Source: Patescibacteria group bacterium (GTDB lineage Bacteria > Patescibacteriota > Patescibacteriia > 2-12-FULL-57-11). Taken from it: a DNA stretch of 53,484 bases. The stretch covers positions 1 through 53,484 of the forward strand of contig JBBUJK010000009.1 of assembly GCA_038054875.1 (NCBI GenBank), given 5' to 3'. Below, one piece after another: positions 5,399 through 30,271 of this stretch. Every line of letters begins with the position of its first letter. The stretch's first letter is position 1. Both the position numbers and the translations under genes were made by a program. Below the pieces are notes generated by a model. That model made no database searches, was not told where the DNA came from, and was given only the letters and a program-made list of their open reading frames with translations.

Positions 5399-5441
5399 AA
5401 GGACGTGAATATAGCAGATTCGGACGGCGATTTCAAGTCCC

Positions 5442-6758
5442 ATGCAAAACCGCATCCAAAAACTGATTACTGTGGTCTTGGCACTGCTTTTCTTGGGCAG
5501 CGTACCGCTCGTGTTGCTGAACACCGCTGGCTACCGCATCAATCTCAGAACACGCCAGTTGGAGCGCACCGGCATCCTCATTCTACGCTCGACGCCCACG
5601 GATGCCCGCATCCTGCTCGACGGCGTGTTGCAGGACGAACGAACGCCCACACGGCTCTCCAAACTCCTGCCGCGCGAATATCGCGTCACGGTTGATCAGG
5701 AAGGATACCAACCCTGGAACAAACTGCTGACCGTGGAAAGCCAGCGTTCTGCATTTGCTCAGAATATCGTCCTGTTCCCGGATCATTTGCCGGAACGCAT
5801 TTCCGACGCCGAAGCTCGGGCGATTGCGGTTTCCTCCGACGGCACGCTTGCCTATGACCACACCAGCGGCGCCTTCACGGAAATCCGCCTGCGCCGGCCG
5901 AACGGGGAAAAAGTCGTGGTCACGCGCGTCGCTCATCGTACCGGTGGTGAACCGGAGCTCTCGCTGAATTGGAGTCCTGACGGTCGGACGCTGCTCGCCC
6001 ATGGAGACATCGCACCAACACTGGTAGGAAATGACGGCAGTCATCGCGCGCTCTCCGCTCCCGGTCCACTCAGCTCGGCCGTTTGGAGCGATCAAGACCT
6101 GTTCCTGCTGACTGACGGCCAGCCGATGTATCTTCCCGCCGGTGGCGTCATGCAGACAGTGACCACCTCAACGGCGCAACTCCTGTGGCATCAGGACGGG
6201 CTGACATATCTCGGTCGCACAACGAGCAGCACGGTCACCGTGGATGTGCTGGCCGCAAACGGCGCACTGCTGCATCCCGCACTGTTCCGCATCACTCCCG
6301 GGTGGAACAGCCGGTTCATCCCCTCTCCACAAGGTTTGCTGACCGTGCTCGGCGACGAGCGCGTCCGTGTCTTCGATGCCGCCACCGGCGCACTCGTCAT
6401 CGACCGCGAAGCCCGCGGCGCAGTCTGGCGGACGGACGGCGCGATCGAGTTGCTGATCTGGACGGACTCCGAACTATGGACGACTGGAACCGACGGCAAT
6501 GCCACGCTCCTGACCCGCCTGGGCGCGCCCATCCGCGACGCCGCCTGGTATCCCGGCGGCACCCACGTGCTGTACGCGTCCGGCGACACCCTGTCCGCCA
6601 TCGAGCGCGACGACCGCGGCGGCCGCGTCATCACCCCGCTCTTCACGCTCCCCGGCTTCGGCACATTCGTGGTGGACGAAAAAGGAGCCGCAGTCTTTGC
6701 GACTGCCGCCCCCGCCGGCAAACCCGGCATTTTCCGGTATCCGATTTTGGTGCCGTAG
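5442..6758 (+). CDS. Membrane-anchored PEGA-domain protein with C-terminal beta-propeller-like region
   Basis: N-terminal TM helix; PEGA-like segment ILILRSTPTDARILLDGV..TPTRLSKLLPREYRVTVDQEGYQPW. Confidence 0.6.
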   Translation: MQNRIQKLITVVLALLFLGSVPLVLLNTAGYRINLRTRQLERTGILILRSTPTDARILLDGVLQDERTPTRLSKLLPREYRVTVDQEGYQPWNKLLTVESQRSAFAQNIVLFPDHLPERISDAEARAIAVSSDGTLAYDHTSGAFTEIRLRRPNGEKVVVTRVAHRTGGEPELSLNWSPDGRTLLAHGDIAPTLVGNDGSHRALSAPGPLSSAVWSDQDLFLLTDGQPMYLPAGGVMQTVTTSTAQLLWHQDGLTYLGRTTSSTVTVDVLAANGALLHPALFRITPGWNSRFIPSPQGLLTVLGDERVRVFDAATGALVIDREARGAVWRTDGAIELLIWTDSELWTTGTDGNATLLTRLGAPIRDAAWYPGGTHVLYASGDTLSAIERDDRGGRVITPLFTLPGFGTFVVDEKGAAVFATAAPAGKPGIFRYPILVP

Positions 6759-12792: not shown

Positions 12793-12881
12793 GTCATCCT
12801 GAACAGTAGTGAAGGATCCTACCTGTTCATGCAAGGGCTCCAACAAGACCTGGAAGGATTCTTCGCTCCGCTCAGAATGAC
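12793..12881. repeat. Family A hairpin element, copy A1 (GTCATCCTGA..TCAGAATGAC)
   Basis: About 27-nt imperfect inverted arms around a 35-nt centre; homologous to 29459-29549 in the opposite orientation. Confidence 0.7.
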
Positions 12882-21928: not shown

Positions 21929-23023
21929 CTACCACCACAACACCAGCCGACAAAGTTTCCAATACAGCGTCATCACGGGATTTCCGATATACCGCAGCAC
22001 TGGAGAATCAACTTCCTGATAGGCAACGACCGTCGCAAAATCACGCGTGATGATGCGGTCCGATATCTTGCGCAGTTTCTGGTTGCGACGGCGGACGACG
22101 AAAAGCGCGCGCCAGTGCGCCGACTTGAGGAAATAGGCATAAACGCGAAATTTCTCTTTCCCCCACCCCTTGAGCAGCGCGAACGGCAACATGCCGATTT
22201 CGAGCGCCAAAAGCATCGGTGCGATGAGCACAAATGTTGCAGCGCTGTAACACATCAACATCACCAAAAAGCGATTGCGCTCCATCCAATAGTATTTGGT
22301 GATACTCCGCGAAAATTCGTACTTGTGCCAGATGACGGCATCCGGAACAAAACGCAATTTCCAACCGGCCAACCGCAACCGCCAGGACAGTTCAACGTCC
22401 TCGTGGTATGCAAACAACGCTTCATCAAGCATACCAATCGCGCGCACCGCCGCAGCGTTCAACACCATGGCCGCGCCGGAGACGGACACGAGATCACGCG
22501 ATTTCATGAACGGCGCAAGACGCGGATCATCGCGTTTCAGACGATAGCCGTCGCAATAGCTCATGCCAAGGTAGTGGATGGCGTTGCCGACGGAATTCAC
22601 GCGATCGGTGTCGGGGTGCAGCACCATGAGCGGCTGCATGCAGCCAACCTGCGGATCGCCCGTGGCGGCCGCCAGCTTCGTCAGCGTTTCCGGCGCGATT
22701 TCGGTGTCCGGATTCAGGAGGAACAGCCAGTCGTAGCCCTCAGCCAGCGCCTGCACCATGCAGTCGTTGTTGCCGCCGGCAAAGCCGCGGTTCGAGGGGC
22801 TCTTGATGAGCGCGCATGAGAAACCGGATTTCGTCGCCGTGCGGTTCGCATCGAGCAAACCGCGCACGACGCCGTATGAGTCGTCACCCGGCGCGCCGTT
22901 ATCGAGCATCCAAATCTTCACCGCGTCCTTGGGGTACGCCATCTTGTCGAGCGACGCGAACAACGCCGGCAGGAACCGGGCGTGTCCGTACGAAACCACG
23001 ATGATGGCGAACTTCTGCGTCAC
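21929..23023 (-). CDS. Glycosyltransferase family 2 (rhamnosyltransferase-like)
   Basis: ORF 21929..23257 trimmed to GTG 23023 (VTQKFAIIVVSYG; GTGA overlap with DUF2304 stop); NRGFAGGNN, LNPD and YHEDVELSWR motifs. Confidence 0.8.
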   Translation of the reverse strand: MTQKFAIIVVSYGHARFLPALFASLDKMAYPKDAVKIWMLDNGAPGDDSYGVVRGLLDANRTATKSGFSCALIKSPSNRGFAGGNNDCMVQALAEGYDWLFLLNPDTEIAPETLTKLAAATGDPQVGCMQPLMVLHPDTDRVNSVGNAIHYLGMSYCDGYRLKRDDPRLAPFMKSRDLVSVSGAAMVLNAAAVRAIGMLDEALFAYHEDVELSWRLRLAGWKLRFVPDAVIWHKYEFSRSITKYYWMERNRFLVMLMCYSAATFVLIAPMLLALEIGMLPFALLKGWGKEKFRVYAYFLKSAHWRALFVVRRRNQKLRKISDRIITRDFATVVAYQEVDSPVLRYIGNPVMTLYWKLCRLVLWW

Positions 23024-23379
23024 ACCTGATTCCCCGAGCCGCGTCGAGGGGCATCCTTTAACAAGGCAATTTCGCGCACCAACGTGGTGATCTCCCGTTC
23101 CTGCCGCTCCATGCGCAGGTACACGCGGAAGACGAGGATGACGAGCGCGAGCACCGCCAAAAACAACAGCGCGTCGACACCCCTCCCGATGCCTAGGAAG
23201 CGCGCGAAGACGTCCGTTTGCTGCGGCAGCTGCACGACGACCGCAATGGCCAACCACAAAAGCGTCCAGCCGGCGAAGAGGCCCGTCGGCAGTTCACGAC
23301 GGCGCCAACGCAGGAAGGCGCCTGCAACGGCGAGCAATCCGATGATCGGGACGGAAATTTTAACGAGGAGAAGGTTCAT
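23020..23379 (-). CDS. DUF2304-like small membrane protein (commonly partnered with GT2)
   Basis: 119 aa, three TM helices then a charged C-terminal helix (RMERQEREITTLVREIALLK); coupled to the downstream GT2. Confidence 0.6.
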   Translation of the reverse strand: MNLLLVKISVPIIGLLAVAGAFLRWRRRELPTGLFAGWTLLWLAIAVVVQLPQQTDVFARFLGIGRGVDALLFLAVLALVILVFRVYLRMERQEREITTLVREIALLKDAPRRGSGNQV

Positions 23380-23382
23380 ACT

Positions 23383-26073
23383 TCAGCCTTTTGGTTTCTC
23401 ACCAATATGGACGCGGACCAATTCAGTAAAGCTTTTCACGGGATACTTTTCCCACACCTCTTCGCGGACGTACAGCATCTCATACCGGAAACGTTTCTGC
23501 GCTGCCGTCGCGTCCGCGCACCATTGCGCGAGCCGGGCAATCTTTCCGGGGTCCTCCACGTCTTCACGGCCTTTCGTCTCGATCACATAGATCGTCTTCG
23601 GATCGACTTTGACGAGAAAGTCAGGCACGTACCCGGCAATTCCACCTTCTGCCGTCCGGTACTCGATCTTGAATCCGAGCGCATCGTGGTTCTTCACGTA
23701 GGAGACGATGTCCTCACAGCCGTCAAGGAAGCGCGCGAATGCATACTCGAGGGAGCTGTCGCCGACGAAACGGCCAAGGATGCTTTTCTTTGAAAGAAGA
23801 TACTCCTGCTGTTTGGCGACGAACGGCTTCATGTCGCTCGCCCTGATGTACCGGCGTACCTCCACGGCGCCTCCCGTATCTTCAACGGTGAGTCTATTAA
23901 TCTCGCGTTTGAACGTCTCGATGATGGCCTTCGTCGCTTCCGGCTCGGAGAGGTTCTTCACGACGGCCGGTTCGTCCAGATGGACGGTTTCGCCGAACAG
24001 ACGCGTCCCGACGAAGTCACGCAGCTTCCCGAAGAGGATGTCGTACCCCGTTACGAGATGCATGTCCTGCATGATCTCCCGCGCGAAGAAACCGAGCGCG
24101 TTTCGCCAATCGGGCGCCTCGCCCTCGACCCACGCGATCTCGTGCGACACTTCCCCACTAACGACCTTACGGAAGACGATCTTCTCCAGATCCTTCTTCG
24201 CATAGCTGCGCCGGTCGATGGAAGAGAACGCGAACGCAGTGACGTCGAGATGCTCCAGGTTCCGATGTTCCTGCCGTAAACGCGGCGTGAGCACCGGCAC
24301 CTCGATGTCGAGCAGGTCGAGATTCTTCTTTTCGTTCTTCTTATCGACCTCGACGATCACCGGGCTCACCGCCCGGTTCTCCATATCCATGCGCCGGTAT
24401 GTGAGTTCGACGCCCTCGCGCTTGATGTGTTCCACGAACTCCATGAATGCCGGCGTACCAATTACGGCAACCTCCTCGGGCACACCCTGGCCGAAGTACA
24501 TGAGACGCAAACCGCGGCCGAGCGTCTGCTCGGGCAGAATGTTGCTCTTCGATGAATAGGCGCGCAGACCGACGATAGTCGTGACGTTCCGGACGTCCCA
24601 ACCCTCTTTGAGCATCAGCACGGAAACGACGGCGCGATACTTACTTTCGTTGCTGTCGATGTCGTTCGCTTCGTCGCGCAGCCGACGAAGTTCCTCATCG
24701 TCCTTCTTTCCCCGGCCTTCCACGATGTCGCCGGACTTGTTGGTGTGGATCGTGAGCACGCGACCGCGCAAGTCGGGATAGCGCAGTTCGAGATGCTTGG
24801 CGACGTCGTCGCAGTTCGTGGTGTCGTCGGTCATGACGAAGAGAATCGCTTTTTTGCCGACCTTCGCGTGTTCCTCAAAGCTCTTTTGCCATTCGAGATA
24901 ACCGACGTGCAGAAAATGCTGATACCGTTCAATGAACTGCGCGGACGTTTCCTCCTTGAGTTTCGCCTGGCTGGCGGCATCGGGAAGCACGGGATGCTTG
25001 ACCACGCCCTGCTGGATGGCCTCGACGAGCGGATAGTCGCAGACCACCTGCGGGAACAGCCTCCCCTTCTCGCTGCGAGGCGTTGCCGAGACGTCAATCT
25101 GCAACGAAAGTTCCTTCCCCTTGAGCTTGAGCTGCGCGGCGATGTCCGTGATCGACTCGAACCAGACCTTTTCGTCGTTGATGTGGTGAGCCTCGTCGTT
25201 CAACACCATCAGCTCGTCGATGTCGCGGACGATGTCGCCGAGATCCACGCGGCTGTCGTTCGTCTTTGCGACCGGCTTTGGTCCCAGGAAATACTCCGTG
25301 GACAACTTTTTTATCTCGACGTCGCCGGCATACACGCGATGAATGTTCGTCAAAAAGATGTTGCCGTACTTCGAGACCATGCCGACACTGTCCTGCAAGT
25401 GCAGGCGCGGCTGGAAGTCGGTGTGCCAATCACGACCCTCGAAGCCGTCGTCCGGCAACATCGGATCGTCGAAGAACAGCTTCAGACCTTCAAAGTCGTG
25501 CTTGATACGTTCGAGGACGATGATGTTCGGCGTTATTACCAGAAAGTTCTTGGAGAGCGCGGAGTCGGTTTCGTACGTCCGGTGGAAATAGCTCCAGACG
25601 ATGAGTAGCGCGAGCACCTTCGTCTTGCCGGAACCTGTGGCCATCTTGAGCACGAGACGCGGCCAGTTCTCGGCGAACAAGCCCGTCGCCAGGCGACCGG
25701 TCGCGTCGAAGTGCAGCAGGTCGACCGGATTGCGAACGCCCACGACCTCGTGCAGATAGATGACGGTTTCAACCGCTTCGCGCTGCGCGAAGTAATACCG
25801 AAACGGCCGCGACTCGCCGTCGGCGCCCGTAACGACATGGCTCTCGATGAACCACCAGCGCAGCAGCGTCTTCGACGTCACGCTCGCACCGGCATAGCCG
25901 CTCTCGCGCCACTCCTTCACCTTCCGCCGTACGGTCGGCACGAGCGGCGGCAACAAATCTTCCCCGCGCTTCCCACGGTCTTCTTCATCGACAGGAACCC
26001 ACCGGACCTCGGGGTCCAGGATGGCATACGGATCTTTGGGAAAATCGGGGTGGAGGGACATGGGTGTGGACAA
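23383..26073 (-). CDS. res: Type III restriction enzyme, Res subunit (SF2 helicase plus PD-ExK nuclease)
   Basis: Walker A MATGSGKTKV, DEAH box LNDEAHHI, motif VI QTLGRGLR, C-terminal nuclease motif VPDFLVKV..YVIETKG. Confidence 0.9.
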   Translation of the reverse strand: MSTPMSLHPDFPKDPYAILDPEVRWVPVDEEDRGKRGEDLLPPLVPTVRRKVKEWRESGYAGASVTSKTLLRWWFIESHVVTGADGESRPFRYYFAQREAVETVIYLHEVVGVRNPVDLLHFDATGRLATGLFAENWPRLVLKMATGSGKTKVLALLIVWSYFHRTYETDSALSKNFLVITPNIIVLERIKHDFEGLKLFFDDPMLPDDGFEGRDWHTDFQPRLHLQDSVGMVSKYGNIFLTNIHRVYAGDVEIKKLSTEYFLGPKPVAKTNDSRVDLGDIVRDIDELMVLNDEAHHINDEKVWFESITDIAAQLKLKGKELSLQIDVSATPRSEKGRLFPQVVCDYPLVEAIQQGVVKHPVLPDAASQAKLKEETSAQFIERYQHFLHVGYLEWQKSFEEHAKVGKKAILFVMTDDTTNCDDVAKHLELRYPDLRGRVLTIHTNKSGDIVEGRGKKDDEELRRLRDEANDIDSNESKYRAVVSVLMLKEGWDVRNVTTIVGLRAYSSKSNILPEQTLGRGLRLMYFGQGVPEEVAVIGTPAFMEFVEHIKREGVELTYRRMDMENRAVSPVIVEVDKKNEKKNLDLLDIEVPVLTPRLRQEHRNLEHLDVTAFAFSSIDRRSYAKKDLEKIVFRKVVSGEVSHEIAWVEGEAPDWRNALGFFAREIMQDMHLVTGYDILFGKLRDFVGTRLFGETVHLDEPAVVKNLSEPEATKAIIETFKREINRLTVEDTGGAVEVRRYIRASDMKPFVAKQQEYLLSKKSILGRFVGDSSLEYAFARFLDGCEDIVSYVKNHDALGFKIEYRTAEGGIAGYVPDFLVKVDPKTIYVIETKGREDVEDPGKIARLAQWCADATAAQKRFRYEMLYVREEVWEKYPVKSFTELVRVHIGEKPKG

Positions 26074-26084
26074 CTATTGACTTT

Positions 26085-26657
26085 TTATTCTTTTCCCAGT
26101 ATATTCTTCGTATCACTACGAAGAAGACCCCTGTCGGGCTCGTCCCGACCGGGGGCTTTTTCATTTTTGGCCTCCAAGATTTGCTGCTGATCACCGATGT
26201 AGGCAATAGGCGCATTTGTGCGTTTGAGCAGCACCGAACACTTTTTTGCTGCTGCCGGGGAGAGAATGATTTTCAGACATTTCTTTTCCTGCCAAAACTT
26301 CACGAGCGGCGTGTAGTCACCATCACTCGTGACGAGAACCGCCTGCGCGCAACCGCCTTCGTATGTATCCCGCATGGCCTGCGTCACGAGATCGGCATCG
26401 CAGTTACCCTTCGGCTTGCCGTTACCGTCGTAGATGACTTCTTTAAAAACCAAGGTAAAACCCGCCTCCTGAAGAGAGGTGTAAAGATCTTTGTATTTGG
26501 GGATCAGACCGATAAAAAGATACGCGCGACTCACGCCGTATTTATCGGAGAGCCACACGCGAAAACGCGCATAATCCAAAACCCAACCCTGCTCCTTCAC
26601 GCCCTGATGCAGGTTCGCGCCATCTATATAAGCGATGATGCCAGCCGCTGGTTTCAT
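26085..26657 (-). CDS. NYN-domain (LabA/DUF88-like, PIN-related) predicted nuclease
   Basis: Conserved acidic residues YIDGANL, GNCDADLV, VTSDGDYTPLV; the last ~25 codons overlap two hairpins. Confidence 0.75.
   Translation of the reverse strand: MKPAAGIIAYIDGANLHQGVKEQGWVLDYARFRVWLSDKYGVSRAYLFIGLIPKYKDLYTSLQEAGFTLVFKEVIYDGNGKPKGNCDADLVTQAMRDTYEGGCAQAVLVTSDGDYTPLVKFWQEKKCLKIILSPAAAKKCSVLLKRTNAPIAYIGDQQQILEAKNEKAPGRDEPDRGLLRSDTKNILGKE
26104..26170. other. Tandem stem-loops in the 3' end of the NYN gene, just upstream of res
   Basis: TTCTTCGTA-tcac-TACGAAGAA (perfect 9 bp) and CCCCTGTCGGG-ctcgt-CCCGACCGGGG (one mismatch), followed on the plus strand by TTTTTCATTTTT. Confidence 0.6.
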
Positions 26658-26711
26658 AGATTGGCCAGAACGGCGTACGGATCTATCGGGAAGTCAGGAT
26701 GGAGGTACATA

Positions 26712-27248
26712 TCAACGGCGCCGTTTGGGTATAATTCGTCGCGATTTTATAATGTTTCTCACTTCTTTAGTGTGGATTTTTTGACGGCTCGCCACGACCT
26801 TCTCACCGATAATGACAACAACCGCGAGTGCTGCTAACCCCCATCTCCACGGAATCGACATCGCCTCAATCCTCTGATTGAGAGAAGCCACGGCGTGGCT
26901 TATCGGCCAACCGTTGTCTGCCGTTTTTGGCTGAAGGTTAATTACCAGGTCGCAATCATTGCCGCTCTGGGCACCGCTATACGTGTAACACGTTCCCAGC
27001 CCTATATGTGTAGCAAGTGTTCGCTCCTGGAAGTCTGGATCATCTCTTGGCCAAAGTTCGTACAGCAAGGAAAAACTACCGTCTTCCCTACTAATCTGTC
27101 TGATCCTCCGTGCTTTCAAATGGCTTAGCGCTTCCAGAGTTTCTTTCTCTCTGGGAAACAAAAAAGATAAGTCATTGATAAGCCAACCAGCTGCAGCTAG
27201 TAGAATGCTTACTGTAAAAAGAACACTTCTAGCTACCCTCATAGTCAT
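26712..27248 (-). CDS. Hypothetical two-TM membrane protein inside the R-M operon
   Basis: 178 aa, N-terminal and C-terminal hydrophobic helices, Cys-containing middle domain, basic tail KSRRIIPKRRR; ATGA overlap with mod stop; lower GC than the locus. Confidence 0.55.
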   Translation of the reverse strand: MTMRVARSVLFTVSILLAAAGWLINDLSFLFPREKETLEALSHLKARRIRQISREDGSFSLLYELWPRDDPDFQERTLATHIGLGTCYTYSGAQSGNDCDLVINLQPKTADNGWPISHAVASLNQRIEAMSIPWRWGLAALAVVVIIGEKVVASRQKIHTKEVRNIIKSRRIIPKRRR

Positions 27249-29389
27249 ACCTTCACCTCAATCACCTTCGTCGTGTCGTTCCCGAAGATGTCGATGACCT
27301 TTACGGCGACCAGACGACGACCTTTGGGAACTTCCTTGGCAGCAGAGACCAATTCCAAGTCGCGGTTCTTCTTGGTACGGAATGACTGCCACTCGTTCTC
27401 GAACACGTAGCGGCCAGTCCACTCATCATTCACGGTCTCCTTCTTGCTCTCATAGTCGAAGTCCACGGCCCAGTAGTCGATCCAGTCCGACCATTTTTTA
27501 GTGAGCACCTCGCGCTTGACGATGTCGCTCTCCTTGTCCTTCGACACTTTCACGACGTTGCCGTTCTCAATGACGATGTGCGCCCCGCCCGGCTTGAGCT
27601 TGTCCTCGGCGCGCTCGATGCCGTCCTGCTCGTAGAAGACGCTGAAGTCGCGCAGCTCCAGCGCGACGGTCTTGCCCTTCACGATCGGTCGCACCTCGAC
27701 GAACGCCAGATCGTAGAACTTCACCTCGCCTTTCTCGATAGCGCGCTGGTCGAACACGTCGCGCGGGATGAGCTTGGGCTGGATGTCCACGCCCTGCTTG
27801 CGCAGCTCGGCAAAGTCGATGCCCATCTCAAAGTCAAAGCCGAGCACGTCGGCCTTGGAAATGCCCTTCTCGCGGCACTCGTCCACGATGGCGTTGATGA
27901 ATGCCTCGCTGACCGGCGTCTCCAACGGCCCAACCGCTACGAGCCGATCTCGCCTCTTGCCGGAGAAAGCCATAAACGACTCCACGCGCTCAGCTTTGTA
28001 CGCCTGCAGAATCAGGTCCTCGAACTCACGCTCCTTCTGTTGTCGAATCTGCTCGCGCTCTTCGGCACGAATATCCCCATCCACCCGCACGAACTCCTGA
28101 CGCTCGTACACGCCGAGGTTGAGAATCTCAAACGCGCGATACGGCTTGCCGTCTTTCTTGAGCTGCCGTTGGACATCAATCAACCGCTTGCGGGATGTGT
28201 GAATCGCATAGCGCCCCAGATCAGCGCCGATCCACTTGCGACCCAGCTTTTCCGCGACTGCTACGGTGGTGCCGGAGCCGCAAAAAAAATCGGCAACAAG
28301 CTCGCCTTCTTTCGAAGTTAATTGGATTACACGTTCAAGTAGTGATTCCGGTTTTTGAGTTGGGTATCCTTCACTCTCCTTCGCTTTTATACCAGTAGAC
28401 ACTGAAATATCGGTCCATATTGAACCCACCGTATCAACGCCTTCGTCAAGATAGTACTTCTTGTACTTCGTTCCAACGGACGTTACATAAATCAAGCCTT
28501 GCTGTTCCATTCTTTCAATAGACTTCTCAGAGTAATCACCTAGAGTAACAAGTTTAAACCTACGACCAGTACCTTCTTCAATCTTATTGTAAACAGCCTT
28601 TTGCTTTTCACTTAAATCTCTATATGGTTGCGTAAAACAATATGAATCAGACTTTGTATAGAACAAAATTGAATCATACTCTTTTGGCAATTGTTGTGAG
28701 ATGCGCTTTGCACCTTTTCCAGCCGGATCTCGTTGCCAAATCACCTCATTATGAAAATAATTACTACCAAATACTTCGCTCATTACCAGCTTAACTTCAC
28801 TGTTAAGCCTCCAATCGCACTGCACATAAATGCTCCCATCCTCCGCAAGCAAATCGCGCATCAGGAGCAAGCGCTCATAGATCATCGACAGGAAGCTGTC
28901 CGCGCCGCGGCCCCAGGTGTCGCGGTAGGCGATCTCTTCGATGACGCTCGGCTCCTTGGTGAACTCCTCGCCGCCGATCTCGATGTCGATGGAGAAGTCC
29001 GCGCCCACGTCGAACGGCGGGTCGATGTAGATGAGCTTGATGCCGCCCTGCGCCTCGATCTCCTTGCGCAGCGGCCCGTGCAGGAGCGAGGACATGATGA
29101 GCTTGTTGTCGCCCCAGATGAGCTTGTTCGTCCAGCCCTTCAACTGCCGGCCGGACGTGTCGAACAGCGACTGCTGCAGTTTGATCTCCTTCTCGCTGCG
29201 CGGTTCGTCGATGTGTTCGATGGTCTGGAACGGCAATACCGCGTTCGTCACCTCGTCCGACTTGCCGTCCCACACCAGCTCCACCTGCCGCTTGTCGCCG
29301 AACAACAAAAACCGGTACTTCTCCGGCAGAGGTTTCCCCTTCTGGAGCAGCTCGGTGATGTCGCGGATTTCGTTGGGAGAGAGGCGCAT
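27245..29389 (-). CDS. mod: Type III R-M DNA methyltransferase, Mod subunit (N6-adenine/N4-cytosine, beta class)
   Basis: Motif IV IYIDPPFDVG precedes motif I FFCGSGTTVAVAEKLGRKWIGADL; track start 29398 is TTG, ATG 29389 preferred (MRLSPNEI). Confidence 0.9.
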   Translation of the reverse strand: MRLSPNEIRDITELLQKGKPLPEKYRFLLFGDKRQVELVWDGKSDEVTNAVLPFQTIEHIDEPRSEKEIKLQQSLFDTSGRQLKGWTNKLIWGDNKLIMSSLLHGPLRKEIEAQGGIKLIYIDPPFDVGADFSIDIEIGGEEFTKEPSVIEEIAYRDTWGRGADSFLSMIYERLLLMRDLLAEDGSIYVQCDWRLNSEVKLVMSEVFGSNYFHNEVIWQRDPAGKGAKRISQQLPKEYDSILFYTKSDSYCFTQPYRDLSEKQKAVYNKIEEGTGRRFKLVTLGDYSEKSIERMEQQGLIYVTSVGTKYKKYYLDEGVDTVGSIWTDISVSTGIKAKESEGYPTQKPESLLERVIQLTSKEGELVADFFCGSGTTVAVAEKLGRKWIGADLGRYAIHTSRKRLIDVQRQLKKDGKPYRAFEILNLGVYERQEFVRVDGDIRAEEREQIRQQKEREFEDLILQAYKAERVESFMAFSGKRRDRLVAVGPLETPVSEAFINAIVDECREKGISKADVLGFDFEMGIDFAELRKQGVDIQPKLIPRDVFDQRAIEKGEVKFYDLAFVEVRPIVKGKTVALELRDFSVFYEQDGIERAEDKLKPGGAHIVIENGNVVKVSKDKESDIVKREVLTKKWSDWIDYWAVDFDYESKKETVNDEWTGRYVFENEWQSFRTKKNRDLELVSAAKEVPKGRRLVAVKVIDIFGNDTTKVIEVKV

Positions 29390-29407
29390 GATGACCAATC
29401 TTCCAAC

Positions 29408-29440
29408 AAAAAAACGCCCGCGTCAACGGGTGTTTTTTAT
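29408..29440. terminator. Bidirectional terminator hairpin immediately upstream of mod
   Basis: AAAAAAA-ACGCCCG-cgtcaa-CGGGTGT-TTTTTAT (one G-U pair); on the minus strand followed by TTTTTTTG. Confidence 0.65.
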
Positions 29441-29458: not shown

Positions 29459-29549
29459 GTCATTCTGAGGCGGCTGCCGAAGAATCCTTCCGGTCCTTGT
29501 CAGAGCTCTTGCGTGAACTGGCAGGATCCTTCGCTCCGCTCAGGATGAC
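29459..29549. repeat. Family A hairpin element, copy A3 (inverted relative to A1)
   Basis: GTCATTCTGAGGCGGCTGCCGAAGAATCC..GGATCCTTCGCTCCGCTCAGGATGAC; the centre is the reverse complement of the A1 centre with scattered substitutions. Confidence 0.7.
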
Positions 29550-29560
29550 AGAGCGGGGTC

Positions 29561-30271
29561 TCATCGCAGTGCACGTCTTACTATCAAACGGCCCAACGTC
29601 TTCAATCCCATCACAAAACTCTGCCCTTTGGAAAGCGAGTAGGTCGTGTAGACGCTCTTGATCGGCACTTCCACGAGCCGGAGCTTGTGCCGGAAAATCT
29701 CGGCGACGATCTCGGATGAGACTTCCATGCGGTCGGTGCGGATCTGTATCTGCTCGGCGGCTGCGCGGGAAAAAGCGCGCAGTCCGGACTGCGAATCGGA
29801 GACGTGTGCGCCAAAGAGTGCGGCGGTCACGACGTTGCCGATGCGATTGGCAACGCGACGGACGAATGGCATCCCCTCTTTGGTGAGCATGCGACTGCCG
29901 ATCACGACGTCCGCACGTCCTTCCCGAATCGGCGCGAGCATGGCGGCAACGTCTTCCGGCCGGTGCTGTCCGTCCGCATCGAACGTGAGCACGATGTCGG
30001 CGCCGTCCGCGAGCGCGGCACGGATGCCGGTGGCAATTGCCGCGCCGAGCCCGCGGTTCAAAACGTGACGGATCACGTGGACACCCCCACCAGTTTCCCC
30101 CCTTGTCAAGGGGGGACCAAGGGGGGTGACGACACGCGCAACATCGGCCGTACTGTCCGTCGATCCGTCATCCACGACGATGATCGCATCGACGCGCGAC
30201 AAAAGACCATCGAGGACCTCCCCGATGGCCTGTGCTTCATTCCATGCGGGAACGACGGCGACAACCTTCAT
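29561..30271 (-). CDS. Glycosyltransferase family 2 (polyprenyl-phosphate glycosyltransferase, DPM1/GtrB-like)
   Basis: MKVVAVVPAWNEAQAI, VVDDGSTDST, NRGLGAAIATG, TFDADGQH; carries family D copy D3. Confidence 0.85.
   Translation of the reverse strand: MKVVAVVPAWNEAQAIGEVLDGLLSRVDAIIVVDDGSTDSTADVARVVTPLGPPLTRGETGGGVHVIRHVLNRGLGAAIATGIRAALADGADIVLTFDADGQHRPEDVAAMLAPIREGRADVVIGSRMLTKEGMPFVRRVANRIGNVVTAALFGAHVSDSQSGLRAFSRAAAEQIQIRTDRMEVSSEIVAEIFRHKLRLVEVPIKSVYTTYSLSKGQSFVMGLKTLGRLIVRRALR
30080..30128 (-). repeat. Family D palindromic element, copy D3, in frame within the GT2 gene
   Basis: Minus strand CACCCCCCTTGGTCCCCCCTTGACAAGGGGGGAAACTGGTGGGGGTGTC, encodes TPLGPPLTRGETGGGV. Confidence 0.8.

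What the first reader, a model, noticed from the sequence alone, without database searches (positions are those of the whole stretch)
23383..29389. Type III R-M operon with two extra genes (a two-TM protein and a NYN nuclease) between mod and res, embedded in the glycan locus
The minus-strand gene order is mod (27245-29389), a 178-aa membrane protein (26712-27248, ATGA-coupled to mod), a NYN/LabA-like predicted nuclease with all catalytic Asp contexts intact (26085-26657), and then res (23383-26073). Res is complete, with helicase motifs and a C-terminal PD-ExK motif. Canonical type III systems are two genes. A membrane protein plus a PIN-related nuclease wedged between the subunits suggests a composite defence module. 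One possibility is a restriction arm combined with an RNA- or DNA-degrading or abortive-infection arm. The block lies between DUF2304/GT2 and another GT2, only 3 nt from the DUF2304 start. It is AT-richer than the flanks in places, which fits horizontal acquisition into the surface-glycan locus.
Basis: partly seen in the sequence, partly recalled or inferred. Interest (0 to 1): 0.7.

Follow-up and report, generated by a model that had tools for sequence, protein, structure and literature searches.

The report
Type III restriction operon carrying inserted cargo
This is an ordinary two-gene restriction system of a groundwater ultra-small bacterium whose mod-res junction has picked up two unrelated passenger genes; one, a nuclease gene paired with a previously undescribed antisense small RNA, recurs in hundreds of related genomes and was inserted into the start of the restriction gene.

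Summary
On the minus strand lie mod, a 178-aa two-TM protein, an NYN nuclease and res, all intact.

The reading as a four-gene composite system is only partly supported.
- **NYN is a later insertion.** A decayed copy of res codons 1-16 sits directly after the TM gene. Its stop overlaps the NYN start. A relative (L001) has mod-TM-res with no NYN.
- **NYN is a self-contained cassette.** All 83 loci examined have a convergent promoter (TTGACW-17-TGnTATAnT). It drives a roughly 55-nt antisense RNA whose covarying hairpin overlaps the NYN 3' end. About half also have a DnaA-box-like 9-mer.
- **Its contexts are mostly unrelated to restriction.** The cassette occurs in at least 466 Patescibacteria genomes. 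About 13% of loci lie beside R-M genes of types I, II, IIG or III. About 18% are flanked by duplicated target sequence, usually a gene start.
- **The mod-res junction is a cargo slot.** Of 68 related type III loci, 35 carry diverse defence- or TA-like genes there.
- **The TM protein is an orphan**, with one close relative in public data.

My best reading is a type III R-M system with two independent passengers. The NYN/antisense-RNA unit is probably a type I toxin-antitoxin-like module. That function is inferred, not shown.

The parts
27245..29389 (-). mod, the type III DNA methyltransferase (714 aa; alternative TTG start at 29398)
   Evidence: It matches PF01555 at 7.9e-43 and PADLOC MTase_III at 2.8e-112. 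DPPF and FxGxG motifs are present in the translation.
26712..27248 (-). Orphan two-TM protein (178 aa), ATGA-coupled to mod. This is cargo gene 1.
   Evidence: It has no Pfam, PADLOC, NCBIfam or PHROG hit. Hydrophobic segments lie near residues 5-30 and 130-150, and the C-terminus is basic. The only close relative is P0122 at 60% identity, in L001. An exhaustive search of 1.84 billion representatives found its own cluster and one weak hit at E 1.9e-4. GC3 is 0.46 against 0.71-0.77 for mod and res. The AF2 model is unusable (pLDDT 46.7).
26654..26710 (-). Decayed duplicate of the res start (DR1 is 26663-26710). It reads as an 18-codon ORF, MYLHPDFPIDPYAVLANL*, whose TGA overlaps the NYN ATG.
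   Evidence: It matches res codons 1-16 at 37 of 48 nt (with z 12.4, 77, 79). It begins 1 nt after the TM178 stop, which is where res begins in L001.
26085..26657 (-). NYN/LabA-like nuclease (190 aa). This is cargo gene 2 and the protein part of the cassette.
   Evidence: It matches PF01936 at 50.2 bits. The AF2 model has pLDDT 83.6, with the tail 167-190 disordered. The best Foldseek matches are 2QIP at 3.7e-9 and the MARF1 NYN domain at 1.6e-4. The acidic residues are conserved. It has 3331 homologues, the closest 120 at 62-99% identity and nearly all from Patescibacteria.
26077..26105 (+). Promoter of the antisense RNA: TTGACT, 17 nt, TATATT, pointing into the NYN 3' end
   Evidence: The promoter scan gives 10 of 12 matches. 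Across 78 loci, TT of TTGAC is invariant and GAC is at least 90% conserved, with fixed spacing to TGnTATAnT.
26112..26168 (+). Predicted antisense small RNA of about 55 nt: a short 5' tail, a bipartite hairpin at 26120-26162, and a U-run. It overlaps the last 27 or so codons of NYN.
   Evidence: The covariance model R1 scores 80.3 bits on the + strand (26103-26173) against 20.9 bits on the - strand. The structure has 17 pairs. 98.9% of cells pair, 138 cells changed on both sides, and 0 of 500 shuffles reach this. The roughly 125 G-U cells fit the antisense strand only. A terminator-like site was also found. Rfam has no matching family. No RNA-seq data were available.
26065..26073 (-). DnaA-box-like 9-mer TTGTCCACA (1 mismatch to TTATCCACA), 3 nt beyond the -35 and at the right end of the cassette
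   Evidence: A match with at most 1 mismatch is found here in 38 of 78 loci against 9 of 359 control windows, in either orientation.
26014..26061 (-). DR2: the first 48 nt of the intact res gene, which are duplicated upstream as DR1
   Evidence: Shown. It matches the L001 res start at 42 of 48 nt.
23383..26061 (-). res, the type III restriction endonuclease/helicase (892 aa from ATG 26061)
   Evidence: It matches PF04851, PADLOC REase_III and NCBIfam BPTD_3080 at 1e-82. It has more than 8000 homologues of about 890 aa. Helicase motifs and a C-terminal PD-ExK are present in the translation.

Best explanation
The locus is a canonical two-subunit type III restriction-modification system (Mod plus Res) of a Patescibacteria (CPR) bacterium. 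Its mod-res junction has acquired two unrelated passenger genes at different times.

**Passenger 1: the TM protein.** It is an orphan two-TM protein, translationally coupled to mod and shared with one relative.

**Passenger 2: the NYN cassette.** It is a self-contained unit of about 600 nt, made of three parts:
- a promoterless NYN nuclease ORF;
- a convergent, strongly conserved sigma-70 promoter, often with a DnaA-box-like site beside it;
- a structured antisense RNA of about 55 nt that overlaps the NYN 3' end and acts as a bidirectional terminator.

**How the cassette sits in res (shown).** It landed inside the first 16 codons of res, and the res start was duplicated. The upstream copy is now a decaying leader ORF whose stop overlaps the NYN start. 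The downstream copy keeps res intact.

**How it probably works (inferred).**
- NYN is transcribed from the operon promoter and translated by coupling to the leader.
- The antisense RNA, made constitutively or under DnaA control, pairs with the NYN mRNA 3' end and keeps nuclease expression low.
- This is the logic of a type I toxin-antitoxin module. It could stabilise the region that carries it, or kill the cell when transcription is shut off, for example by phage.

**How cargo probably moves (inferred).** Cassettes appear to move between homologous loci by recombination within conserved gene 5' ends. That would explain why the duplications start at the start codon.
For: **NYN is an insertion.**
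- A res 5' remnant follows the TM178 stop by 1 nt and overlaps the NYN ATG.
- L001 (Mod 76%, TM 61%, Res about 76% identical) has mod-TM-res with res starting 1 nt after the TM stop and no NYN.
- L102 retains the right end of the NYN cassette plus a res-start copy. The match to the window is about 70 of 82 nt. There the NYN ORF has been replaced by other cargo.
- GC3 of NYN (0.58) and TM178 (0.46) is well below that of mod and res (0.71 and 0.77).

**The cassette is autonomous.**
- It was found in 466 species-level genomes.
- Its neighbours are extremely diverse: 501 neighbour proteins fall into 457 clusters, and the immediate neighbours are mostly housekeeping genes.
- All 83 loci searched with the RNA model have the antisense RNA at the NYN 3' end, with no solo copies.
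- The promoter is nearly invariant.
- The hairpin covaries and is strand-specific.
- Nothing is conserved upstream of the NYN start codon.
- The protein tail that overlaps the RNA is predicted to be disordered.

**Target duplications.**
- Direct repeats of 25-109 nt flank the cassette in 13 of 72 assessable genome loci (z above 9).
- At least 8 are copies of the downstream gene's N-terminal coding sequence, starting at or within 8 nt of its start codon. Examples are dCTP deaminase, transketolase and a LivH-like permease.

**The junction is a cargo slot.**
- 35 of 68 related mod..res loci hold 0.4-2.9 kb of diverse genes there.
- The cargo includes KilA-N/Bro-N, DUF3800, other NYN proteins, SIR2+HerA, HepT/MNT, Fic and PADLOC PDC candidates.
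- Embedding of cargo in multi-gene defence systems is a described phenomenon (bioRxiv 10.1101/2024.01.29.577857).

**NYN looks catalytically competent**.
Against: - No transcript data exist for the antisense RNA or for NYN. Two run searches and one read-laying run gave nothing usable.
- Toxicity of this NYN protein is untested.
- Typical type I toxins are small membrane peptides with their own promoters. NYN is a 190-aa nuclease without one.
- The cassette is enriched next to DNA methyltransferase genes: 9 of 287 genes within two positions, against 2 of 561 at six or more positions. R-M components lie within two genes in about 10 of 79 loci. Some functional tie to R-M therefore cannot be excluded.
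- The homologous-recombination model for the duplications does not explain the first insertion into a new gene.
- The DnaA-box assignment rests on consensus only.
Confidence: 0.55

Rival explanations
1. One reading: the four genes form one composite defence system. The membrane protein and the NYN nuclease would work with Mod and Res, for example as a latent RNase held in check by the R-M complex in the way PrrC is held by EcoprrI, to add an abortive-infection arm.
For: - All four genes are co-oriented and tightly packed.
- NYN cassettes are enriched beside methyltransferase and R-M genes of types I, IIG, II and III.
- Three other NYN-domain proteins sit in the same mod-res slot in related systems.
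- An NYN protein (HEC-09) was proposed as a defence candidate because it is embedded in Hma systems.
Against: - L001 has mod-TM-res without NYN. L102 and other relatives have entirely different middle genes.
- About 87% of the NYN cassettes surveyed are not next to R-M genes.
- The cassette carries its own regulatory RNA wherever it is found.
- That RNA is absent from 85 other type III loci.
- The TM protein has one known close relative.
- HEC-09 gave no protection against the phages tested.
Confidence: 0.12
2. The NYN cassette is a selfish mobile element. Its own nuclease would catalyse insertion in a homing-like manner, producing long target duplications, and the antisense RNA would be a copy-number control like RNA-OUT of IS10.
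For: - Its distribution is patchy but wide, with 62-78% protein identity across CPR classes.
- Flanking direct repeats of target sequence occur in about 18% of loci, two of them 100% identical.
- Some 20-kb loci hold two copies.
- Insertions lie in many unrelated genes.
Against: - The same gene-start duplication flanks non-NYN cargo (PRiA4_ORF3, DUF3800) in L102. The duplication is therefore not an NYN-specific activity.
- There is no conserved left end and no terminal repeats.
- The duplications are long and variable (25-109 nt) and start at start codons, which fits homology-driven exchange better than staggered cleavage.
- Characterised NYN domains such as MARF1 are RNases.
- The family is absent from phage, viral and plasmid collections at more than 60% identity.
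Confidence: 0.15
3. The NYN protein is a housekeeping RNA-processing enzyme of CPR bacteria with a cis-antisense regulator. Its position in the R-M operon would be an accident of genome shuffling with no bearing on defence or conflict.
For: - Sequence conservation is very high.
- Many neighbours are housekeeping genes.
- Bacterial NYN proteins have been linked to tRNA and rRNA processing by gene context (PMC5499597).
Against: - It was found in only 466 of about 185,000 species genomes.
- There is no conserved neighbourhood at all.
- It lacks its own promoter.
- Some loci hold duplicated copies.
- Insertion signatures with target duplications are present.
- It is enriched next to methyltransferases and in an AbiE / C5-MTase / Vsr island.
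Confidence: 0.08

Closest known systems
Canonical type III R-M systems (EcoP15I / EcoP1I type)
   Same: mod lies upstream of res on one strand. Mod is an N6/N4 methyltransferase. Res has an SF2 helicase region followed by a C-terminal PD-(D/E)xK nuclease.
   Different: Two extra genes lie between mod and res. In this Res family about half of the loci carry such cargo.
Genes embedded in multi-gene defence systems ('guilt by embedding'; Hma, BREX, DISARM, type I R-M; bioRxiv 10.1101/2024.01.29.577857)
   Same: Diverse defence- or TA-like genes are nested between the genes of a defence operon. The cargo here includes PADLOC PDC-S05, S13 and S22, SIR2-HerA, SoFic and NYN hits.
   Different: That study did not analyse type III R-M. 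Here the insertion point is defined to the nucleotide, at the res start, and is marked by duplicated copies of the res 5' end.
PIN-domain TA genes inside type I R-M operons, and the prr locus (PrrC anticodon nuclease within EcoprrI)
   Same: A PIN-like or other RNase is lodged within an R-M operon. Relatives of this NYN also sit inside type I hsdM..hsdS..hsdR operons.
   Different: There is no protein antitoxin and no evidence of physical control by the R-M enzyme. The partner here is an antisense RNA. The PrrC comparison rests on my own knowledge and was not tested.
Type I toxin-antitoxin loci with convergent, 3'-overlapping antisense RNAs (par/Fst-RNAII of pAD1; txpA/RatA, bsrG/SR4 of Bacillus). 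From my own knowledge.
   Same: A protein gene and a small RNA are transcribed convergently. They overlap at the 3' ends and share a bidirectional terminator. The RNA has a strong promoter of its own.
   Different: The presumed toxin is a 190-aa NYN nuclease rather than a small membrane peptide, and it has no promoter of its own. Toxicity and RNA expression are untested. SymE and RalR are nuclease-type precedents.
LabA-like NYN proteins (COG1432; PDB 2QIP) and the MARF1 NYN RNase (PDB 5YAA)
   Same: The fold and the acidic active-site residues match.
   Different: Identity is only 12-22%. This CPR subfamily has a disordered tail encoded by the RNA-overlap region and is always paired with the antisense RNA.
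Minimal mobile elements of Neisseria (cassette exchange between conserved flanking genes by homologous recombination). From my own knowledge.
   Same: A fixed chromosomal site bounded by conserved sequences (mod 3' end, res 5' end) holds alternative cassettes in different strains.
   Different: Here the conserved flank (the gene start) is duplicated on both sides of the cargo. That is not a described feature of those elements.

Membership tests
Type III restriction-modification system | Mod subunit: N6/N4 DNA methyltransferase with a DPPY/F motif and an FxGxG motif | tested here: met
   PF01555 at 147 bits and PADLOC MTase_III at 2.8e-112. DPPF and FCGSGTT are present in the translation.
Type III restriction-modification system | Res subunit: SF2 helicase motifs plus a C-terminal PD-(D/E)xK nuclease, encoded downstream of mod | tested here: met
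   PF04851 and PADLOC REase_III match. The motifs GSGKT, DEAH, QTLGRG and PD..ExK are present. More than 8000 homologues of about 890 aa were found, several named 'type III restriction enzyme' by their sources.
Type III restriction-modification system | ATP-dependent cleavage needing two inversely oriented unmethylated sites | not testable with these tools
   This is a biochemical property.
NYN domain (PF01936, LabA-like) | HMM match above the curated cut-off, a PIN-like fold and conserved acidic residues | tested here: met
   50.2 bits against a cut-off of 24.2. Foldseek matches 2QIP and MARF1 NYN. D12, D87, D89, D112 and D114 are conserved.
NYN domain (PF01936, LabA-like) | Metal-dependent ribonuclease activity | not testable with these tools
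Type I toxin-antitoxin system | A cis-encoded antisense RNA overlapping the toxin mRNA, with its own promoter and terminator | tested here: inconclusive
   The promoter, the covarying strand-specific hairpin and the U-run are conserved in 83 of 83 loci. No expression data could be obtained.
Type I toxin-antitoxin system | The protein is toxic when expressed without the RNA | not testable with these tools
   This needs expression experiments.
Type I toxin-antitoxin system | The toxin is a small hydrophobic peptide with its own promoter (the typical form) | tested here: not met
   NYN is a 190-aa soluble nuclease. Nothing is conserved upstream of its start codon.
Dedicated R-M accessory subunit (PrrC-like coupling) | Consistent co-occurrence with the partner R-M genes | tested here: not met
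   Only about 10 of 79 NYN loci have R-M genes within two positions, and these are of four different R-M types. Its RNA is absent from 85 other type III loci. L001 lacks NYN.
Embedded defence cargo (guilt by embedding) | Nested between the genes of a multi-gene defence system, with alternative cargo in related systems | tested here: met
   35 of 68 related loci carry diverse cargo between mod and res.
Embedded defence cargo (guilt by embedding) | Demonstrated anti-phage activity | not testable with these tools
   The only tested NYN candidate in the literature (HEC-09) showed no protection.
Insertion sequence / transposon | A transposase or recombinase gene and defined terminal repeats | tested here: not met
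   NYN is the only ORF. The left end is not conserved, and no terminal inverted repeats were seen in the junction sequences.
Insertion sequence / transposon | Short target-site duplications of fixed length | tested here: not met
   The repeats are 25-109 nt, variable, and begin at start codons. They also flank non-NYN cargo.

The most novel reading that the evidence does not exclude
The NYN gene and its antisense RNA are a previously undescribed family of addiction or abortive-infection cassettes specific to CPR bacteria. The module would be a nuclease-toxin type I TA system whose RNA antitoxin is driven by a promoter flanked by a DnaA box. It would spread as a promoterless unit that lodges just inside the 5' end of expressed genes, including R-M genes, while duplicating the gene start so that the host gene survives.
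Probability: 0.35. Interest if true: 0.8.

Novelty: new variant of a known kind. Interest (0 to 1): 0.62.

Why it matters
- **Type III systems have a cargo slot.** Embedding in defence operons was described for Hma, BREX, DISARM and type I R-M. In this type III family about half the loci also carry cargo, at a precisely defined point, the res start. Those loci are a source of candidate defence genes.
- **A new protein-RNA module.** The NYN nuclease paired with a structured antisense RNA has no Rfam family, and I found no literature on it. It occurs in hundreds of Patescibacteria, a group that largely lacks CRISPR and cannot be grown alone. If it is a toxin-antitoxin or abortive-infection unit, it adds a nuclease-toxin member to type I TA systems.
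- **A possible link to replication.** The DnaA-box-like site hints at coupling to replication status.
- **A clue to gene movement in reduced genomes.** The recurring gene-start duplications suggest how small cassettes move between these naturally competent genomes without a transposase.
- **An annotation warning.** Tight packing inside a defence operon is not evidence of a shared mechanism.

Tried and rejected
- **RNA evidence.** No RNA run holds the window cassette. Metatranscriptome runs from the studies that hold a relative (L014) gave no coverage.
- **Rfam.** There was no significant family for the hairpin, and none near the DUF3800 cargo in L102.
- **TM178 structure.** The model has pLDDT 46.7, so it was not taken to a fold search.
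- **TM178 relatives.** PHROGs, PADLOC, Pfam and NCBIfam gave nothing. The exhaustive profile search gave one weak hit.
- **Virus and plasmid carriage of the NYN family.** There was none in IMG/VR or GenBank phages. Plasmids held only relatives at 27-30% identity.
- **Duplication around the whole R-M block.** Comparing the region upstream of mod with the DUF2304 start gave none.
- **A conserved protein partner of NYN.** Clustering 501 neighbours found none. The largest recurrent clusters were DNA methyltransferases.
- **Population variants lacking NYN.** Contigs from four groundwater runs showed no clean DR1/DR2 joint.
- **NYN as a guide-RNA nuclease.** I considered and rejected this. The RNA has no variable segment.
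Full report
**1. Observation**

The four minus-strand ORFs are present as described.
- mod is 27245-29389.
- The 178-aa ORF is 26712-27248 and overlaps the mod stop by 4 nt.
- The NYN ORF is 26085-26657.
- res runs from 23383. Its homology-supported ATG is at 26061, not the TTG at 26073.

- Mod matches PF01555 and PADLOC MTase_III at 2.8e-112.
- Res matches PF04851 and PADLOC REase_III. It is related to the NCBIfam BPTD_3080 restriction endonucleases.
- The middle protein matches PF01936 (NYN) at twice the curated cut-off.
- The 178-aa protein matches nothing in Pfam, PADLOC, NCBIfam or PHROGs.

The NYN model is confident (pLDDT 83.6). Its best structural matches are the LabA-like NYN protein 2QIP and the MARF1 NYN RNase. 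D12, D87, D89, D112 and D114 are conserved.

The window comes from a Hainich groundwater metagenome. The NYN and Res relatives are overwhelmingly from Patescibacteria/CPR.

**2. The NYN gene is an insertion into the start of res**

A relative, L001, has Mod 76%, TM protein 61% and Res about 76% identical to the window. It has mod-TM-res, with res starting 1 nt after the TM stop and no NYN.

In the window the same position holds a short ORF (26710-26654, 1 nt after the TM178 stop). It reads MYLHPDFPIDPYAVLANL*.
- It is a decayed copy of res codons 1-16 (MSLHPDFPKDPYAILD).
- It matches at 37 of 48 nt.
- Its TGA overlaps the NYN ATG.

The intact res start follows the NYN cassette at 26061. The cassette therefore landed inside the first 16 codons of res, and the gene start was duplicated.

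The closest Res relative on a long contig is L102. It keeps the right end of the same cassette fused to a res-start copy: GTCAAAAGTTATCCACACCC|ATGTCCCTCCA, about 70 of 82 nt identical to window 26081-26000. There DUF3800 and PRiA4_ORF3 genes occupy the slot. L102 has three copies of the res 5' end in all, each starting at the ATG.

Composition agrees. GC3 is 0.71 for mod and 0.77 for res, like the neighbouring genes. It is 0.58 for NYN and 0.46 for the TM gene.

**3. What the NYN gene belongs to**

The protein has 3331 detectable homologues. The closest 120 are 62-99% identical. A genome scan found relatives in 466 species-level genomes.

Its neighbourhood is not conserved.
- 501 neighbouring proteins fall into 457 clusters.
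- The 111 immediate neighbours are mostly housekeeping proteins such as MreB, CTP synthase, ligase, enolase and tRNA synthetase.

What is conserved is nucleic acid.
- The last part of the ORF and the next 60 or so nucleotides are nearly invariant, whatever the reading frame or stop-codon position.
- On the opposite strand there is a promoter, TTGAC(T/A)-17-TGnTATAnT. Across 78 sequences TT is invariant and GAC is at least 90% conserved.
- After the promoter come a short tail, a bipartite hairpin and a U-run.

The hairpin is well supported.
- It has 17 pairs, and 98.9% of cells are paired.
- 138 cells changed on both sides, and 0 of 500 shuffles reach that.
- About 125 G-U cells would be A-C mismatches on the coding strand, so the folded molecule is the antisense transcript.
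- A covariance model scores 80.3 bits on the window + strand (26103-26173) against 20.9 bits on the other strand.
- The model finds one copy at the 3' end of NYN in all 83 loci searched and no solo copies.
- It finds none in 794 kb of other type III loci.
- Rfam has no such family.

Three further features complete the picture.
- A DnaA-box-like 9-mer lies 3-10 nt beyond the -35 in 38 of 78 loci, against 9 of 359 control windows.
- Nothing is conserved upstream of the NYN start codon, so the ORF has no promoter of its own.
- The protein tail encoded by the RNA-overlap region is predicted to be disordered.

**4. Insertion signatures elsewhere**

Direct repeats of 25-109 nt flank the cassette in 13 of 72 assessable genome loci (z above 9). 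Two of them are 100% identical.

At least eight are copies of the N-terminal coding sequence of the downstream gene. Each starts at or within 8 nt of that gene's start codon. Examples are dCTP deaminase, transketolase, a LivH-like permease and a NUDIX protein. The upstream copy typically ends in a stop close to, or overlapping, the NYN start. That allows translational coupling.

The same signature flanks non-NYN cargo in L102. The duplication is therefore not an activity of the NYN protein.

The sharp left boundary at the start codon fits exchange by recombination within conserved gene 5' ends, because homology between donor and recipient begins at the ATG. A circle carrying one repeat would integrate in Campbell fashion and regenerate two repeats. 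This is inference. It does not explain the first insertion into a new gene.

**5. Relation to R-M systems**

The cassette is enriched beside DNA methyltransferase genes. The count is 9 of 287 genes within two positions, against 2 of 561 at six or more positions.

R-M components lie within two genes in about 10 of 79 loci. The contexts differ:
- inside type I operons, as hsdM-NYN-x-hsdS-x-hsdR;
- directly after a type IIG enzyme lodged in the mraY-murD cluster;
- in an AbiE / C5-methylase / Vsr island.

The association is real but loose, and it spans R-M types. That is what one expects of a passenger that accumulates in variable, defence-rich regions.

PIN-type TA genes inside type I R-M operons have been noted before (PMC5499597).

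**6. The mod-res junction is a cargo slot**

mod could be located upstream of res in 68 related loci.
- 33 have the two genes overlapping or within 70 nt.
- 35 have 0.4-2.9 kb between them.

The 51 middle ORFs fall into about 42 clusters, and many are ATGA-coupled to mod. They include:
- KilA-N/Bro-N;
- DUF3800;
- three distant NYN proteins without the RNA;
- Schlafen/AlbA_2;
- SIR2+HerA;
- HepT with a nucleotidyltransferase;
- Fic, GIY-YIG and PIN/DUF4411;
- PADLOC candidates PDC-S05, S13 and S22.

Embedding of defence genes inside Hma, BREX, DISARM and type I R-M operons has been described. Type III was not analysed in that study.

The window's TM protein is one such cargo gene. Its only close relative is in L001. 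An exhaustive profile search of 1.84 billion representatives adds one weak hit. L102 has a different, unrelated two-TM protein in the same position. Its function cannot be inferred beyond a membrane anchor with an intervening domain of about 100 aa that holds two conserved cysteines.

**7. Most likely mechanism**

Shown:
- the system is a complete type III R-M;
- NYN with its antisense RNA is an autonomous, widely dispersed unit that was inserted into res;
- res is preserved by duplication of its start.

Inferred:
- NYN is transcribed from the operon promoter and translated by coupling to the remnant leader;
- the antisense RNA, from a strong promoter possibly modulated by DnaA, pairs with the NYN mRNA 3' end and limits its expression;
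- when the RNA is lost, the nuclease would act.

This is type I toxin-antitoxin logic with a nuclease toxin, for which SymE and RalR are precedents from my own knowledge. I put about 0.35-0.4 on the TA-like function and about 0.9 on the independent-insertion part.

The rivals are a composite four-gene system, self-mobilising nuclease and housekeeping RNase. They are weighed in their own sections.

**8. Novelty and verdict**

The type III system itself is ordinary, and embedding is a known phenomenon now extended to type III.

Three items appear undescribed: the NYN/antisense-RNA cassette, its DnaA-box-flanked promoter, and the gene-start duplications. There is no Rfam family, and literature searches gave no hits.

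Its interpretation is partly right about defence-type cargo at the junction and wrong about a single co-evolved four-gene system.

Noticed in passing
L102:4404-4478, 5441-5502, 5962-6035: Three copies of the res 5' end lie in one locus, each starting at the ATG. They bracket DUF3800 and PRiA4_ORF3 cargo. Copy B is preceded by the right end of the NYN cassette, without the NYN ORF.
   Followed up: yes
window 26065-26073 (-) and the same position in 38 of 78 NYN loci: A DnaA-box-like 9-mer (TTATCCACA, at most 1 mismatch, either orientation) lies 3-10 nt beyond the -35 of the antisense promoter. It is about 20-fold enriched over control windows.
   Followed up: partly
window 29525-29549 (-) and 12857-12881 (-): A 25-mer, GTCATCCTGAGCGGAGCGAAGGATC, occurs twice in the window (the second copy has 2 mismatches) against 0 expected by chance. 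One copy lies just upstream of mod. A similar palindromic element flanks the NYN cassette in L038.
   Followed up: partly
window ~29405-29440 (-): A hairpin with a T-run (AAAAAACACCCGTTGACGCGGGCGTTTTTTTG) lies between the upstream GT2 gene and mod. It looks like a terminator that separates the R-M operon from the glycan genes.
   Followed up: no
L103:4195-4398 compared with L104: In L103 the C-terminal 67 aa of Mod are called as a separate ORF (Mod is 648 aa). The near-identical locus L104 has an intact 746-aa Mod. This suggests a frameshifted or phase-variable mod allele.
   Followed up: no
L137:1-336: A distant NYN protein (37% identical to the window's) lies upstream of mod in another type III locus. 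Three further distant NYN proteins lie between mod and res (for example L160:3626-4504 and L175:2492-3247). None has the antisense RNA.
   Followed up: partly
L006-L013 / L043 (7001-7543): A type IIG R-M enzyme (911 aa) plus the NYN cassette is lodged between mraY and murD in the cell-wall/division gene cluster of a Buchananbacteria genome. The arrangement was identical in 24 contigs from several samples.
   Followed up: partly
window 25836-26061 in run X1: A 426-nt contig from the same groundwater sample matches res at about 92% identity up to its ATG at 26061 and then diverges. This indicates a co-occurring strain with a different sequence upstream of res.
   Followed up: no
window 26110-26167 in runs X1-X3: Several unrelated contigs from the same metagenomes match only the antisense-RNA segment at 85% identity or more. 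This segment is the most conserved nucleotide stretch of the cassette, and other community members carry it.
   Followed up: partly
window 23020-23379 and 29561-30271: The R-M block sits between a GT2 glycosyltransferase gene and a DUF2304 gene. From my own knowledge these two are usually adjacent partners, so the block may have split that pair. No flanking duplication was found.
   Followed up: partly
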